Shown here piece by piece: positions 5,842 through 48,334 of a stretch of DNA of 64,000 nt. Made by a program: the position numbers and the translations under genes. The notes beneath the pieces are model-generated. The model did not search any database and was not told where the DNA came from. It was given only the letters and a program-made list of their open reading frames with translations. How positions within the stretch are numbered: the first letter of the stretch is position 1; each line of letters begins with the position of its first letter. Origin of the DNA: the human T2T-CHM13v2.0 reference genome, Homo sapiens. Where the stretch lies: assembly GCF_009914755.1 (NCBI RefSeq), contig NC_060943.1. The stretch is one strand, 5' to 3'.

Positions 5842-6336
5842 CTAGAGAAAACAAAATTCTTCCTCTGTTTCTGGGTGTGTTAGGAGAGAGGTTATCAAGC
5901 GACTGTCTTCCTAGGCGCTGTTGCCCTTTGAAATCAGAGTCATTGGCTGTGGCTGTAGTAAATGTTATTGTGCTACTCAATAGCAGAGCTTTGGCTCTCT
6001 AATGACAAAGCTCTTTTGTTTTATATTCCTGCCCCTGCCCTACTTCTTTTCCAGGTTATAAACAGTCTCAAAATTTTGCTTAGCATTTGCCCCAGTTTCA
6101 GAAATCTCTCCTAAGCGTAGAAATATAAATGTGGGCATTTATCTACCCAACAATTCTTCCCCCCTGCCCCTGGATCTCTTATTTTTACCTCTTTCCGTCA
6201 TCTCTCTTTCTCTCCCTCTCCCATGCAACTATACATGTGTGTATGTGTGTCACCTGGGTATATCTGTGTTGTATGGTTTTATATATATACTTATATATGT
6301 TATATGGTTTTGTATATATGCTGTATGGTTAATACA

Positions 6337-9259: not shown

Positions 9260-9280
9260 CCACAGTTGATGATAATTCAT
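9260..9280 (-). CDS. BSPH1: BSPH1 micro-exon 2 (21 nt)
   Basis: tgtttttcag|ATGAATTATCATCAACTGTGG|gtgagt encodes (N)ELSSTV(E), phase 1-1. Confidence 0.93.
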
Positions 9281-16725: not shown

Positions 16726-18016
<1,291 letters not shown>

Positions 18017-18325
18017 CTTCCGCTTATTTGTGACGACATCTTATTATCTGCAAGCCGGATTGCTGTGGGGACCCAGCTGTTATTGTCTGTATTGAATTCG
18101 ACCAGCATCAAAAACTTGCAGTTTGCTACTCAGTAGCTCAAAAGAAACTCTTAAGAGACAATAGGCTGTGTGCGGTGGCTCCTGCCTATAATCCCAGCAC
18201 TTTGGGAGGCTGAGGTGGGTGAATCACCGAAGATCAGGAGTTCGAGACCAGCCTGGCCAACATGGTGGAACCTGGTCTCTACTAAAAATACAAAAATTAG
18301 CTGGGCATGGTGGCACGTGCCTTTA

Positions 18326-18565
<240 letters not shown>

Positions 18566-19338
18566 TCATTTAAAATACAGGCTAACGAGCCCGGGGCCCA
18601 TGAGTTTTTATTCTCTGATGCATTATTAAAAGAAATGCTTCATCAGTAAGGCTCTGAATAGCACAAGTATTATGTGGAAAAATATGACATCCATAAATTA
18701 GGAGACCAGACATTGACAGCGGAGAAGCTTTAGGATCGTCTTAATTTGCCTTTTTCCACTTATCTATATTCCTTTTTATGTATCTACAAACATGATGTCT
18801 GATTTAAAAAAAAAACCTGTGGCCAAGTACAGTGTTATTTTTCAGTAAGTATAAAATAATTCTAGTGGATAAGAAAGCAGTGGTCATAGTTACATTGGGA
18901 GTATATTTTCTTTTCTGTTCTTTAAAAAAAAATAGCAAGCAGTGTTATTTTTTTTTAATGCAAAGATGTCCTGAAGAATACTTAAAAGAAATATCTGCAA
19001 GATCATTCTTCTTGGTCATTCCATAAAAAATTGTTTTTGAAACTATGCTTAGTCCTCATCAAACGTTGTCAGATGCATCCATAGTGAATTCCCTTCTTAT
19101 TTTTCTATTTCGCTTCATAATTGTTACAGGCAACACGACTTTGGAAAAGGAATAAAATCGACTTTATGAAAATTAGTCTCATTTTCAAAACCTCTGCAGG
19201 AGGCATTTAAAATCTCCTAGCATGAAGGGAGGAGACACATGGTTTTCAAGTAACATGTCACTAGGATTTTCCAATTTACATTCTTAGTCTTTCATTATTT
19301 TATTAGCCGAACTTTCTTATTTTTTAAAAAATCTTTAC

Positions 19339-19353
19339 CTATGGATTGTGTTT
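19339..19353 (-). CDS. BSPH1: Candidate 15-nt BSPH1 micro-exon, (E)TQSI(D)
   Basis: ctctcccttccatgtcag|AAACACAATCCATAG|gtaaag; phase 1-1, open. Confidence 0.45.
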   Translation of the reverse strand, partial: KHNP

Positions 19354-19498
19354 CTGACATGGAAGGGAGAGTATCTTTTTCTTTCTTAAGGTACCTAAAG
19401 CAAGGGAGACTGTTGCCCTCCATGGCGACTGGGATTTGATTACATACAGCAGCCGATGTGCAGGACTCCGTCCCAGCCAGGGTCACCTGTCTCCTCAC

Positions 19499-19595
19499 CT
19501 TCTTCCAGAACGTTAAATACAGCGCCGACCACACCACCGACCACACCGCGAATCAGGCAGACCCAAACCAGCAGGAGCCCCATGTGCCGGGCCAT
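19499..19595 (-). CDS. BSPH1: Candidate alternative BSPH1 first coding exon encoding a signal peptide
   Basis: agcATGG Kozak; MARHMGLLLVWVCLIRGVVGGVVGAVFNVLEE; AAG|gtgagg phase-1 donor, in frame with exon 2. Confidence 0.65.
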
Positions 19596-19637
19596 GCTCC
19601 TGTCAGACACTCGTGGTCGACCAGCTGATGTCCAAGA

Positions 19638-19644
19638 TTTTATA
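19638..19644 (-). promoter_or_regulatory. TATA box for the candidate alternative first exon
   Basis: ggggcTATAAAAtc on the minus strand, starting 49 nt upstream of the ATG at 19595. Confidence 0.6.
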
Positions 19645-19669
19645 GCCCCTGGAACTAACCACAACCACT

Positions 19670-20275
19670 TCCCCTCCCTGTCCCTCCTCTCTTTCCCTCC
19701 TCCCCACTTCTTCCTTGTCCCTCTCCTTTTTCACCTTCTCCTCCTCCTCATTCTTTTTCTCCCTTCTCCTTCTCCTCTCCTCCTCCTCCTTCCTTTCCTC
19801 CTCCTTCTTCTTCTCTTCCTTCTCCTCCTCCTCCCCCTCCTTTTCCTCCCCTCCTCCTTTTCTTCTTTCTTCCCCTCCTCCCGGTCATCCTCCTCCTCCC
19901 TCTCTTTCCCCTCTGTCTCCCCCTCCTCCTCCTCCCCCTCTTCCTCCTCTTCCCTCCTCCTCCTCCTTCCCCTCCTCCTCCGTCTGCTCCTCCTCCCCCT
20001 CCTCCTCTTCCTTCTCTTTCTCCCCTCCTCCTCTCCTCCTCCTTCTTCCTACTCTCCCTCATTCCCCTCCTTCTCTCCCTCCTCCTCTTCCTTCTTCACC
20101 TCCTCCCCCCTTCTCCCCCCTTTCCCTCTTTCTCCCCTCCTCCTCCTTCCTCTCTTCCTCCTCTTCCCTCTTCCACCTCCTTCCCTGCCTCTTCTCCTTC
20201 CTCCTCCTTCCCCTCTTCCCCTTCCTCCTCTTCTTTCATCTTTCATCCCCACCTTCTCCCTCCTTCCTTGCTCTC
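19670..20275. repeat. Polypyrimidine (CCT/CTT)n low-complexity tract
   Basis: About 600 bp almost exclusively C/T on the plus strand. Confidence 0.95.
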
Positions 20276-20335
20276 ACTCTGCTCCAAAGTTAAGCTATCT
20301 ACCTTGCATAGGAAGAAATATAGAAAAAGAAATAC

Positions 20336-20408
20336 TTAAAATAACAGGGAAGATGCAAGCTGAGGAATTTCGCGTCGTTTCCACGAAGAGAAGCATCAGG
20401 GAGCCCAT
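20336..20408 (-). CDS. BSPH1: BSPH1 first coding exon as I recall the reference protein
   Basis: MGSLMLLFVETTRNSSACIFPVIL + A|gtattt; exon sum 73+21+30+132+143 = 399 nt = 132 aa + stop. Confidence 0.92.
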
Positions 20409-20521
20409 GGGCAGTCACAGGCTTCCCGGTATCTCAGATCTTCCTGGTCTTTGTCAGCCAGGGCTCAAGAATCCCCTGGAGAGGCCCAGGGAGGCTTCTT
20501 GGAAAAGCAGGTTTGCTTCCC

Positions 20522-20529
20522 TAATATAA
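20522..20529 (-). promoter_or_regulatory. TATA-like element upstream of BSPH1 exon 1
   Basis: TTATATTA on the minus strand about 115 nt upstream of the ATG at 20408. Confidence 0.4.
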
Positions 20530-20812
20530 GCACCTTTGTTGATGCTCCACAAACCTTCAGTGTGGGCCACTGTTCTCTGGAGGCCCTTGGTGATTAACCT
20601 AATGGGCTGCAGATGGCTTTGAAGTTCTGAGGAACAAGTGGTGCAGCCTTATGGACACCTACATTTCCAACTATGAAATAAATAAATAAATAAATAAAAG
20701 TATTTAAAAAAGAAAAATCAGATTAATCCTGAATTCTGAAACCCAACGTGTTCTTAGTTACTGTTCCTTTTTTTTTTGAGACAGAATTTTGCTCTTGTTG
20801 CCTAGGCTGTAG

Positions 20813-21618
<806 letters not shown>

Positions 21619-21942
21619 TCAAAAATGTCAGCAACTATCAAATTAGAAACTCTTATGAAATAAAAGCCTATCCAAGACTTTAAAAATACCTTTGAGGAAT
21701 CCTAGTTTTTGGAAATGACTGTTGCCTTCACTTATTTCTAACATTTCTTTTTTCTTTTCTTTTTTTTTCTTTCTTTTCTTTTTTTTTTTTTTTTACATGG
21801 AGTCTCACTCTGTTTCCCAGGCTGGAGTGCGGTAGCGTGATCTTGGCTCACTGAAACCTCCACCTCCTGAGTTCAAGCGATTCTCCTGCCTCAGCCTCCC
21901 AAGCAGCTGGGACCAGAGGCGTGTGCCAGCAGACCCAGCTAA

Positions 21943-22167
<225 letters not shown>

Positions 22168-47078: not shown

Positions 47079-47859
<781 letters not shown>

Positions 47860-48013
47860 CTTATCCGTAACATTGGGATAATAACGTCATCCGGAAGTTG
47901 CTTGGAGAATCCAATGTGACGTTGCCTTTAATGGGATAAAGGGTGGCACAGTTTGTGTGTCATAAATGGAAGCTCTTTTCATCTCCTCTTCTTGACCCGT
48001 AACCTTTCCATAA

Positions 48014-48334
<321 letters not shown>

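What the first reader, a model, noticed from the sequence alone, without database searches (positions are those of the whole stretch)
19499..19644. Second, apparently intact BSPH1 promoter and first exon encoding a much better signal peptide
Seen: TATAAAA (19644-19638), ATG at 19595 in strong context (agcATGG), 32 codons MARHMGLLLVWVCLIRGVVGGVVGAVFNVLEE, and a near-consensus AAG|gtgagg donor in phase 1. It joins exon 2 in frame (...EE-DELSSTVETITHFPEVTDGECVF...). The upstream exon I recall as the reference one (MGSLMLLFVETTRNSSA...) has a short hydrophobic core and a weak TAA|gtattt donor. From memory, bovine BSP signal peptides begin MALQLGLFLIWAG/MAPLVGLFLIWAG, which resembles MARHMGLLLVWVC. 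Inference: this is the ancestral signal-peptide exon, so the secreted human BSPH1 may have a different N-terminus (140 aa, or 145 aa with the micro-exon), or two promoters give secreted versus poorly secreted forms.
Basis: partly seen in the sequence, partly recalled or inferred. Interest (0 to 1): 0.88.

Follow-up and report, generated by a model that had tools for sequence, protein, structure and literature searches.

The report
Unannotated ancestral signal-peptide exon of BSPH1
Inside the first intron of the human sperm-binding gene BSPH1 lies an intact copy of the first exon that other mammals use to encode the protein's secretion signal, but the human reference annotation omits it and whether human tissue still uses it could not be tested here.

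Summary
On the minus strand there is TATAAAA at 19644-19638 and an ATG at 19595 with A at -3 and G at +4. Then come 32 open codons plus one base and an AAG|GTGAGG phase-1 donor after 19499.

It is not a chance ORF. It is the human orthologue of the canonical first coding exon of mammalian BSPH1. A snub-nosed monkey BSPH1 protein (140 aa) starts with this exon, 28 of 32 residues identical, and continues into exon 2 across the same junction. Its residues 1-35 map to one place in the human genome, this exon. N-termini of 17 of 67 BSPH1 proteins from many mammalian orders land on this ATG.

Spliced to the annotated exons it gives an open 140-aa product. Its donor ranks at the 91st percentile of 278 chr19 donors; the annotated exon-1 donor scores below all 278.

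RefSeq has no transcript using it. No reads, CAGE or trained signal-peptide predictor were available. So "ancestral signal-peptide exon" is supported, and "used in human" stays open at roughly even odds.

The parts
19638..19644 (-). TATAAAA box, 49 nt upstream of the candidate ATG. With the usual spacing of about 30 nt it predicts a start of transcription near 19613-19615 (inferred).
   Evidence: The motif is frequent in the window (23 copies against 10.8 expected), so it is weak evidence alone.
19596..19637 (-). Putative short 5' UTR with no upstream ATG. Its sequence is alignable to read-through N-terminal extensions of the colugo and pangolin gene models.
   Evidence: TATA-to-ATG segment; P0023 and P0005 align across 19637-19596.
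19499..19595 (-). Candidate first coding exon: ATG plus 32 codons plus 1 base (phase 1). It is the orthologue of the canonical BSPH1 signal-peptide exon.
19525..19547 (-). 12-bp tandem duplication inside the exon (period 12, 1.9 copies, 100% match) encoding GVVG-GVVG. It is part of an insertion of about 8 residues relative to non-catarrhine mammals. It is shared with the two Old World monkey proteins, so it is older than the ape/monkey split.
19493..19498 (-). Intronic half of the donor AAG|GTGAGG.
   Evidence: 11.6 bits, 91st percentile of 278 chr19 MANE GT donors. It is the best of 537 GT sites in intron 1.
9260..9280 (-). Annotated exon 2, whose acceptor both first exons would share. The split codon becomes Asp with the candidate exon and Asn with the annotated exon.
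20336..20497 (-). Annotated (RefSeq) first exon, CDS 20408-20336. It has a TATA-like TATATTA at 20528-20522, 31 nt upstream of the annotated start. Its donor is TAA|GTATTT.
   Evidence: donor -0.47 bits, below all 278 sampled donors.
19707..20247 (.). Purine-rich (GA on the gene strand) low-complexity repeat separating the two first exons. It leaves no pyrimidine tract upstream of the candidate exon, so the exon can hardly act as an internal exon.
   Evidence: masked as repeat 19730-20052 and 20116-20272.

Best explanation
Window 19499-19595 (minus strand), with the TATA box 49 nt upstream of its ATG, is the human orthologue of the canonical first coding exon of mammalian BSPH1. This exon encodes the signal peptide in other mammals and in the related BSP, HSP-1 and A3 seminal proteins. 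All its sequence signals are intact in human.

Proposed mechanism (inferred):
1. A proximal TATA-type promoter starts transcription near 19613.
2. The ATG at 19595, in a strong context, opens a 32-residue N-terminus: a positively charged start, the hydrophobic core MGLLLVWVCLI, then small residues (VVG repeats).
3. The strong phase-1 donor joins exon 2 at 9280.
4. The result is a 140-aa precursor collinear with monkey BSPH1. It enters the endoplasmic reticulum, where the four disulfides of the two fibronectin type II domains can form.
5. Signal peptidase probably cuts after one of the VVG motifs, by homology with the SVVG ends of orthologous signal peptides.

The RefSeq transcripts start 0.8 kb further upstream at a different first exon and skip this one.

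Shown: identity, orthology, intactness, the in-frame product and the relative donor strength.
Inferred: promoter activity, start of transcription, cleavage site.

My probability for the exon's identity is about 0.95. My probability that it is used at an appreciable level in human epididymis is about 0.45. The confidence below is for the whole statement including use.
For: Orthology
- the only named protein found with the exon as query is Rhinopithecus roxellana BSPH1 (140 aa, E 3.3e-9). It begins with this exon and continues directly into the exon-2 sequence.
- the human spliced product is 140 aa with the stop as its last codon. It is 129/140 identical to that monkey protein, without gaps.
- monkey residues 1-35 map once in the whole human genome, to chr19:50983491-50983595(-), which is window 19491-19595 (E 2.7e-9).
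- 29 of 67 BSPH1 proteins match the peptide at E<=10 (16 below 1e-3), and 24 of them align Met1 to Met1. The annotated exon-1 peptide matches only the human cluster convincingly.
- 17 of 67 N-termini have their best window hit starting on the ATG at 19595. They come from primates, carnivores, bats, elephant and manatee, tree shrew, colugo, rodents and pangolin.
- horse HSP-1-like and mole A3-like proteins carry the same type of N-terminus.

Sequence signals
- the donor is at the 91st percentile, against an annotated donor below all 278.
- there are no comparable decoys in intron 1.
- the hydrophobic core scores 3.30, above the median (2.92) of 28 orthologous signal peptides.
- Kozak context A-3/G+4.

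Use in monkeys
- a second monkey model (Macaca nemestrina cluster, 13 members) also starts at this exon but splices to other exons. That pattern suggests transcript evidence for the exon in macaques (inference).

Need for ER entry
- The Cys columns of both fibronectin type II domains are invariant. A functional protein therefore needs to enter the ER (established knowledge of disulfide formation).
Against: - RefSeq RS_2025_08 lists two BSPH1 transcripts. Both start at 20497 and neither uses this exon.
- No functional element (promoter, CAGE cluster, enhancer) is annotated in window 1-24000.
- By recall, and by the reference list seen, the only cloned human cDNA is the basis of the upstream-exon model.
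- The monkey proteins are computed gene models, not sequenced proteins.
- An intact exon is expected even without selection. About 3% divergence on the human branch means only about 4 substitutions in 146 nt (inference).
- The exon differs from the monkey at 4 of 32 residues against 7 of 107 in the rest of the protein. That is no sign of stronger constraint (Fisher p = 0.28).
- The signal-peptide assessment is a hydropathy heuristic only. By it, the annotated N-terminus (2.41) is not outside the orthologue range.
- The 98 papers that mention BSPH1 were seen as a listing of 40 and as passages from 6; none of what I saw mentions this exon. Peptide-string searches found 0 papers.
Confidence: 0.45

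Rival explanations
1. Silent relic. The exon is the ancestral signal-peptide exon, but in humans (perhaps in apes generally) transcription has moved to the upstream promoter and this exon is no longer used. It looks intact only because too little time has passed for it to decay.
For: - No RefSeq transcript uses it.
- The human protein cluster (14 member sequences) carries the upstream N-terminus, and no separate human or ape cluster with this exon was returned.
- Divergence from the monkey in this exon (4/32) is no lower than in the rest of the protein (7/107).
- Neutral retention over some 25-30 million years is plausible (inference).
Against: - The annotated alternative has a donor weaker than all 278 sampled donors, and 249 of 537 intronic GT sites score at least as well. 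It also has a poorer signal-peptide-like N-terminus. That is odd for the sole route to a disulfide-rich secreted protein.
- A 140-aa ape model would be 92% identical to the monkey representative. It could therefore be hidden inside that 90% cluster, whose members I could not list.
- CpG density in the exon is 0.83 observed/expected against 0.27 for the window. This is unusual for unconstrained, methylated DNA, but only suggestive.
Confidence: 0.42
2. The exon's strong donor is used, but from the upstream start site. This would give a long first exon (20497 to 19499). The upstream ATG would then open a short reading frame of 37 codons, and the signal-peptide ATG would be read by re-initiation or leaky scanning.
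For: - The upstream donor is extremely weak, and the next strong donor on the strand is this one.
- The upstream ATG frame closes after 37 codons if the weak donor is skipped (ORF 20295-20408).
Against: - No such transcript is annotated.
- A 999-nt first exon containing a 540-nt purine repeat is unusual (inference).
- Nothing here tests it.
Confidence: 0.06
3. Chance open reading frame next to a chance TATA box and a chance donor, with no relation to BSPH1 exon 1.
For: TATAAAA is common in the window (23 copies). Short ORFs are common.
Against: - 88% identity to monkey N-termini and Met-to-Met alignment with 24 orthologues.
- A unique genome-wide hit.
- Only 2 decoys in 11 kb, and the other one is not hydrophobic.
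Confidence: 0.01

Closest known systems
First coding exon of BSPH1 in other mammals, for example the Rhinopithecus roxellana model P0001 (140 aa) and the cat, otter, elephant, bat and rodent proteins
   Same: - Same position in the gene, and the same start on Met1.
- The same M-A-x-x-x-G-L-L-L-V-W-V-C core, the same phase-1 junction into exon 2, and the same 140-aa product length as the monkey.
   Different: - The human copy is not part of any RefSeq transcript.
- Catarrhine copies carry an insertion of about 8 residues that includes a 12-bp tandem duplication.
- Human differs from the monkey at 4 of 32 residues.
Human BSPH1 reference first exon (NM_001128326.2, window 20336-20497)
   Same: Also a TATA-associated first exon. 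It ends in phase 1, joins the same exon 2 and gives an open product (132 aa, identical to stored protein P0003).
   Different: - No detectable DNA similarity to the candidate exon region (best E 0.53).
- Its peptide matches no orthologue convincingly except a weak cow hit (E 0.008-0.4).
- Its donor is TAA|GTATTT at -0.47 bits against 11.6.
- It has no charged start, a 9-residue hydrophobic run followed by Glu, C at -3 of its ATG, and lower hydropathy.
Signal peptides of BSP, HSP-1 and A3 seminal plasma proteins and of BSPH2
   Same: Horse HSP-1-like (P0088, P0111, P0114) and mole A3-like (P0115) proteins start M-A-P-x-L-(G/R)-(I/L)-(F/L)-L. P0115 matches the candidate at E 0.005.
   Different: - These are paralogous genes, and identity is limited to about 13-16 residues.
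- BSPH2 proteins have a different N-terminal pattern.
Genes whose alternative first exons give ER-targeted and non-targeted isoforms (IL1RN and gelsolin; recalled, not checked here)
   Same: Two promoters and first exons join a common exon 2, and only one of them encodes a classical signal peptide.
   Different: - For BSPH1 neither the use of the second promoter nor a difference in secretion has been shown.
- Both BSPH1 N-termini have some hydrophobic stretch.

Membership tests
Orthologue of the canonical mammalian BSPH1 signal-peptide exon | Sequence homology to the N-termini of BSPH1 orthologues, beginning at the initiator Met | tested here: met
   29 of 67 proteins hit, 24 aligned Met1 to Met1, 88% identity to two monkey proteins; 17 of 67 best hits start at 19595.
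Orthologue of the canonical mammalian BSPH1 signal-peptide exon | Syntenic, single-copy position inside BSPH1, upstream of exon 2 | tested here: met
   monkey residues 1-35 hit only chr19:50983491-50983595(-), between annotated exons 1 and 2. Other hits are fibronectin type II domains of other genes.
Orthologue of the canonical mammalian BSPH1 signal-peptide exon | Phase-1 donor joining the next coding exon in frame, as in the orthologue | tested here: met
   same junction residue (Asp) as monkey P0001; 140-aa open product, 129/140 identical, no gaps.
Orthologue of the canonical mammalian BSPH1 signal-peptide exon | Transcribed and spliced in human epididymis | not testable with these tools
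   Reads and CAGE were not available. RefSeq has no such transcript. Supplements of the RNA-seq paper PMC7436996 were closed.
Classical N-terminal signal peptide | Charged start, hydrophobic core of 7-15 residues, small residues at -3/-1 of a cleavage site | tested here: inconclusive
   heuristic: one Arg before an 11-residue core; 9-residue mean hydropathy 3.30 (28 orthologues: 2.09-3.60); VVG motifs follow. No trained predictor and no experiment.
TATA-type core promoter | TATA box about 25-35 nt upstream of a mapped start of transcription | not testable with these tools
   The box is present at 19644-19638, but no start site data. The motif occurs 23 times in the window.
U12-type (minor spliceosome) intron, as an explanation of the odd annotated donor GTATTT | Donor close to the recalled U12 consensus, and a branch site of the recalled U12 type within about 10-26 nt of the acceptor | tested here: not met
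   Read by eye against the recalled consensus. The donor differs at +5/+6, and no branch-site-like motif lies near the exon-2 acceptor.

The most novel reading that the evidence does not exclude
Apes took up an upstream first exon with a very weak splice donor and a poor secretion signal, and that exon became the human reference. The ancestral signal-peptide exon is still the one that makes the secreted BSPH1 in the human epididymis. If so, the reference human BSPH1 protein has the wrong N-terminus for the functional secreted form. The two promoters would then yield an ER-targeted and a poorly targeted product.
Probability: 0.3. Interest if true: 0.55.

Novelty: new member of a known kind. Interest (0 to 1): 0.42.

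Why it matters
BSPH1 is the only human member of the binder-of-sperm family and is studied as a capacitation factor. Antibodies, recombinant constructs and proteomic databases all rest on the 132-aa reference.

If the ancestral exon is used, the following change:
- The precursor, the cleavage site and the mature N-terminus. An N-glycosylation sequon (N-S-S) lies in the reference N-terminus and is absent from the alternative.
- Mass-spectrometry searches would miss the true N-terminal peptide.

The locus is also a compact case for studying how a reproductive gene changes its first exon and promoter during primate evolution.

If the exon is silent, the finding is an ordinary annotation footnote: a recently bypassed exon.

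Tried and rejected
- Tandem duplication of the first-exon region. The two N-termini both contain M-G-(S)-L, so I compared 20280-20700 with 19300-19730 on the gene strand. Only 7-9-mers matched (best E 0.53). Rejected.
- U12-type intron as the reason for the GTATTT donor. Rejected by eye against a recalled consensus.
- Structured RNA. Rfam gathering scan of 18000-22000 found 0 matches.
- The long plus-strand ORF 19456-20529 (357 aa) is a translation of the pyrimidine-rich strand of the repeat. Dismissed as an artefact.
- Cow counterpart of the human reference exon. P0048 residues 1-49 align to 20594-20448 (59%, E 2.7e-14). P0020 residues 1-25 align weakly to 20399-20325 (32%, E 0.008), with a competing hit at 19429-19400 (E 0.16). 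This suggests the upstream region is alignable, and exonic in cow models. The identity is about what neutral alignable DNA would give, so I draw no conclusion on age.
- Literature.
  - Searches found nothing on this exon. One search was badly framed and returned irrelevant papers.
  - Passages only were read from PMC4557993 (passages and section 5), PMC7265374, PMC3927612, PMC11483612, PMC4577580 and PMC7436996.
  - The primary human cloning paper (doi 10.1093/molehr/gal098), a recalled DOI for the recombinant-protein paper, and PMC2844493 were not held. I saw nothing of them.
  - Supplements were closed and may hold transcript-level data.
- Constraint test. 4/32 against 7/107 residue differences to the monkey, p = 0.28. 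Uninformative.
- I could not list the members of the 90% clusters, so I cannot say whether an ape or human model with this exon is hidden in the monkey cluster.

Full report
OBSERVATION

The minus strand of the window reads TATAAAA at 19644-19638, then 42 bases without an ATG, then ATG at 19595 in the context AGGAGCATGG (A at -3, G at +4). After that come 32 codons (MARHMGLLLVWVCLIRGVVGGVVGAVFNVLEE) plus one base, and AAG|GTGAGG with 19499 as the last exon base.

Annotated exon 2 (9280-9260) follows a cag acceptor and starts AT GAA TTA. The split codon is therefore G+AT = Asp with this exon, and A+AT = Asn with the annotated exon.

A script joined the coordinates of this exon to the four annotated downstream coding exons. 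The result is a 423-nt CDS of 140 codons whose only stop is the last codon. The same script reproduces the 132-aa reference protein exactly from the annotated exon.

It encodes MGSLMLLFVETTRNSSACIFPVIL and ends TAA|GTATTT.

IS IT MORE THAN CHANCE?

I built a simple donor weight matrix from 278 GT donors of MANE transcripts. These lie in 200 kb of chr19 fetched for that purpose; 279 annotated donors lay in the stretches, and one was AT. The tiles were chosen for donor density and are G+C-rich. The model is position-independent, not MaxEntScan.
- The candidate donor scores 11.6 bits, the 91st percentile. It is the best of the 537 GT dinucleotides on this strand in intron 1.
- The annotated exon-1 donor scores -0.47 bits, below all 278. 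249 of the 537 intronic GT sites score at least as well.
- In the 11,055-nt intron only 2 ATG-initiated open frames of at least 15 codons end in phase 1 at a donor of at least median strength. The other one (13684-13615) has no hydrophobic stretch.
- TATAAAA alone is common: 23 in the window against 10.8 expected from shuffles, 14 of them on the minus strand.

WHAT IT IS

I searched with a stop-free 96-codon stretch around the exon, with the words drawn from residues 42-81. Among named sources this gave one candidate and one hit: BSPH1 of Rhinopithecus roxellana, 140 aa, E 3.3e-9. Two candidates of untold source were left out. That protein begins MAGHMGLLLVWVCLFRGVVGGVVGGLFNVLEE and runs straight on into the exon-2 sequence.

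Searching with that protein returned 67 BSPH1 proteins at E<=1e-5 among 76 candidates; 281 unnamed candidates were left out. Their N-termini mostly follow the pattern M-A-x-x-V-G-L-L-L-V-W-V-C-x-L-H-S-V-x-G.

Three further tests agree.
- A short-query BLASTP of the human 32-residue peptide against these 67 gave hits in 29 at E<=10, and in 16 below 1e-3. The E-values refer to that small set. 24 hits align Met1 to Met1. The annotated exon-1 peptide hit 7 subjects, and only the human cluster scored better than E 0.4.
- TBLASTN of the first 30 residues of all 67 against the whole 64-kb window put the best hit of 17 of them exactly on the ATG at 19595. One (human) landed on the annotated CDS, one (cow P0048) on 20594-20508, 46 elsewhere (other exons, low-complexity sequence or weak chance hits), and 2 nowhere.
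- In the whole human genome, monkey residues 1-35 match once, at chr19:50983491-50983595(-), which is window 19491-19595 (E 2.7e-9, 83%). The other 20 matches are fibronectin type II exons of BSPH1, ELSPBP1 and other genes.

It comes out in favour of the candidate.

A profile search (169 proteins at E<=1e-5 of 247 candidates, best 120 listed, 1716 unnamed left out) added paralogues. Among the 53 new proteins, 8 matched the peptide at E<=1. They include a mole "seminal plasma protein A3-like" protein (MAPGLRLLLVWACACVFLQLD..., E 0.005). Horse HSP-1-like proteins start MAPRLGIFLILAG. So the exon type is shared with the BSP branch of the family.

ANATOMY

An alignment of the exon with 18 of the 67 proteins shows that catarrhine copies carry about 8 extra residues before the exon's end. 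Inside that stretch is a perfect 12-bp tandem duplication at 19525-19547, which encodes GVVG twice. Both Old World monkey proteins have it, so it predates the ape/monkey split.

Upstream of the exon the gene strand is almost pure purine for about 540 nt (19707-20247). There is therefore no pyrimidine tract or acceptor, and the exon can only be a first exon with its own start of transcription. That is an inference from the sequence.

The exon region is CpG-dense. It has 9 CpG in 146 nt, observed/expected 0.83, against 0.27 for the window. Only 27 of 2555 sliding windows reach 9 CpG: 4 cover this exon, 22 overlap masked repeats, and 1 is at 47776.

The reference first exon 0.8 kb upstream has its own TATA-like box (TATATTA, 20528-20522), 31 nt before the annotated start. 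No DNA similarity links the two exon regions.

SIGNAL PEPTIDE

No trained predictor was available, so I used a hydropathy heuristic.
- The candidate has one Arg before an 11-residue uncharged core. Its best 9-residue Kyte-Doolittle mean is 3.30.
- 28 orthologous N-termini, which I picked by eye as canonical, range from 2.09 to 3.60 with a median of 2.92.
- The reference N-terminus has no charged start. Its 9-residue run is followed by Glu, and its best mean is 2.41, reached further in, at residues 16-24.

It does not show that the reference N-terminus fails as a signal.

All Cys columns of the two fibronectin type II domains are invariant. Whichever form is functional must therefore reach the ER, which follows from established knowledge.

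IS IT USED IN HUMAN?

This is the open point.

Against use:
- RefSeq lists two transcripts, both starting at 20497. No functional element is annotated in window 1-24000.
- No separate human or ape protein cluster with this N-terminus was returned.
- The exon differs from the monkey at 4 of 32 residues against 7 of 107 elsewhere (p = 0.28).
- Intactness over some 25-30 million years is expected even without selection (inference).

For use:
- Every signal is intact.
- The reference donor is weaker than any of the 278 sampled.
- A second monkey model (Macaca nemestrina cluster) starts at this exon but continues through an exon matching human 17058-16984 and an extended exon 4. Such a pattern usually comes from transcript evidence (inference).
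- A 140-aa ape model would be 92% identical to the monkey representative, so it could be hidden in that 90% cluster.

The literature available to me says nothing either way.
- 98 papers mention BSPH1, of which 40 were listed.
- Peptide strings from either N-terminus or the junction occur in 0 papers.
- The human gene is described as having six exons (passage in PMC7265374).
- BSPH1 is epididymis-specific in human RNA-seq (passages in PMC7436996).
- The epididymis also has apocrine secretion for proteins without signal peptides (passage in PMC4577580).
- The primary cloning paper was not held.

VERDICT

The exon is real and is the ancestral signal-peptide exon of BSPH1 (about 0.95). It is structurally competent to give a 140-aa precursor collinear with monkey BSPH1. 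Its use in human is undecided: about 0.45 for use, about 0.42 for a silent relic, and about 0.06 for use of its donor from the upstream start.

It is a new member of a known kind: an unannotated alternative first exon of a known gene, with known orthologues. It is of moderate interest to reproductive biology and genome annotation, and one look at epididymis reads would decide it.

Noticed in passing
window 20336 (donor of annotated BSPH1 exon 1): The reference donor TAA|GTATTT lacks G at both -1 and +5. It scores below all 278 sampled chr19 MANE donors, and 249 of 537 GT sites in the same intron score at least as well. The reference splice is unusually weak for a MANE Select transcript.
   Followed up: partly
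window 19707-20247: About 540 nt of purine/pyrimidine-asymmetric low-complexity repeat (GGA/GAG-rich on the gene strand, nested periods 3, 27 and 61-95) sits exactly between the two first exons. Its possible effect on transcription or DNA structure was not examined.
   Followed up: no
window 19499-19644: A small unmasked CpG-dense patch (9 CpG in 146 nt, observed/expected 0.83 against 0.27 for the window) coincides with the candidate exon and its 5' UTR.
   Followed up: partly
window 47776-47921: The only other unmasked 146-nt window with at least 9 CpG, just upstream of an ELSPBP1 exon (48024-48182). Not examined.
   Followed up: no
window 16984-17058 and 5842-5998 (minus strand): A Macaca nemestrina BSPH1 model (191 aa) joins the signal-peptide exon to a segment matching human 17058-16984 (68% over 25 residues). 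It then continues into exon 4 extended upstream by about 157 nt. Both segments are open in human too. They may be alternative exons or model artefacts.
   Followed up: partly
window 20448-20594 and 19403-19501 (minus strand): Cow gene models translate sequence homologous to the human reference promoter and 5' UTR (P0048, 59% over 49 residues). They also translate, in another frame, the region just downstream of the candidate donor (P0014, 41% over 34 residues). Several alternative first exons seem to be modelled in cattle.
   Followed up: partly
window 20295-20408 (minus strand): If the weak reference donor is skipped, the upstream ATG opens only a 37-codon frame. Read-through transcripts would then carry a short upstream ORF ahead of the signal-peptide ATG.
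   Followed up: no
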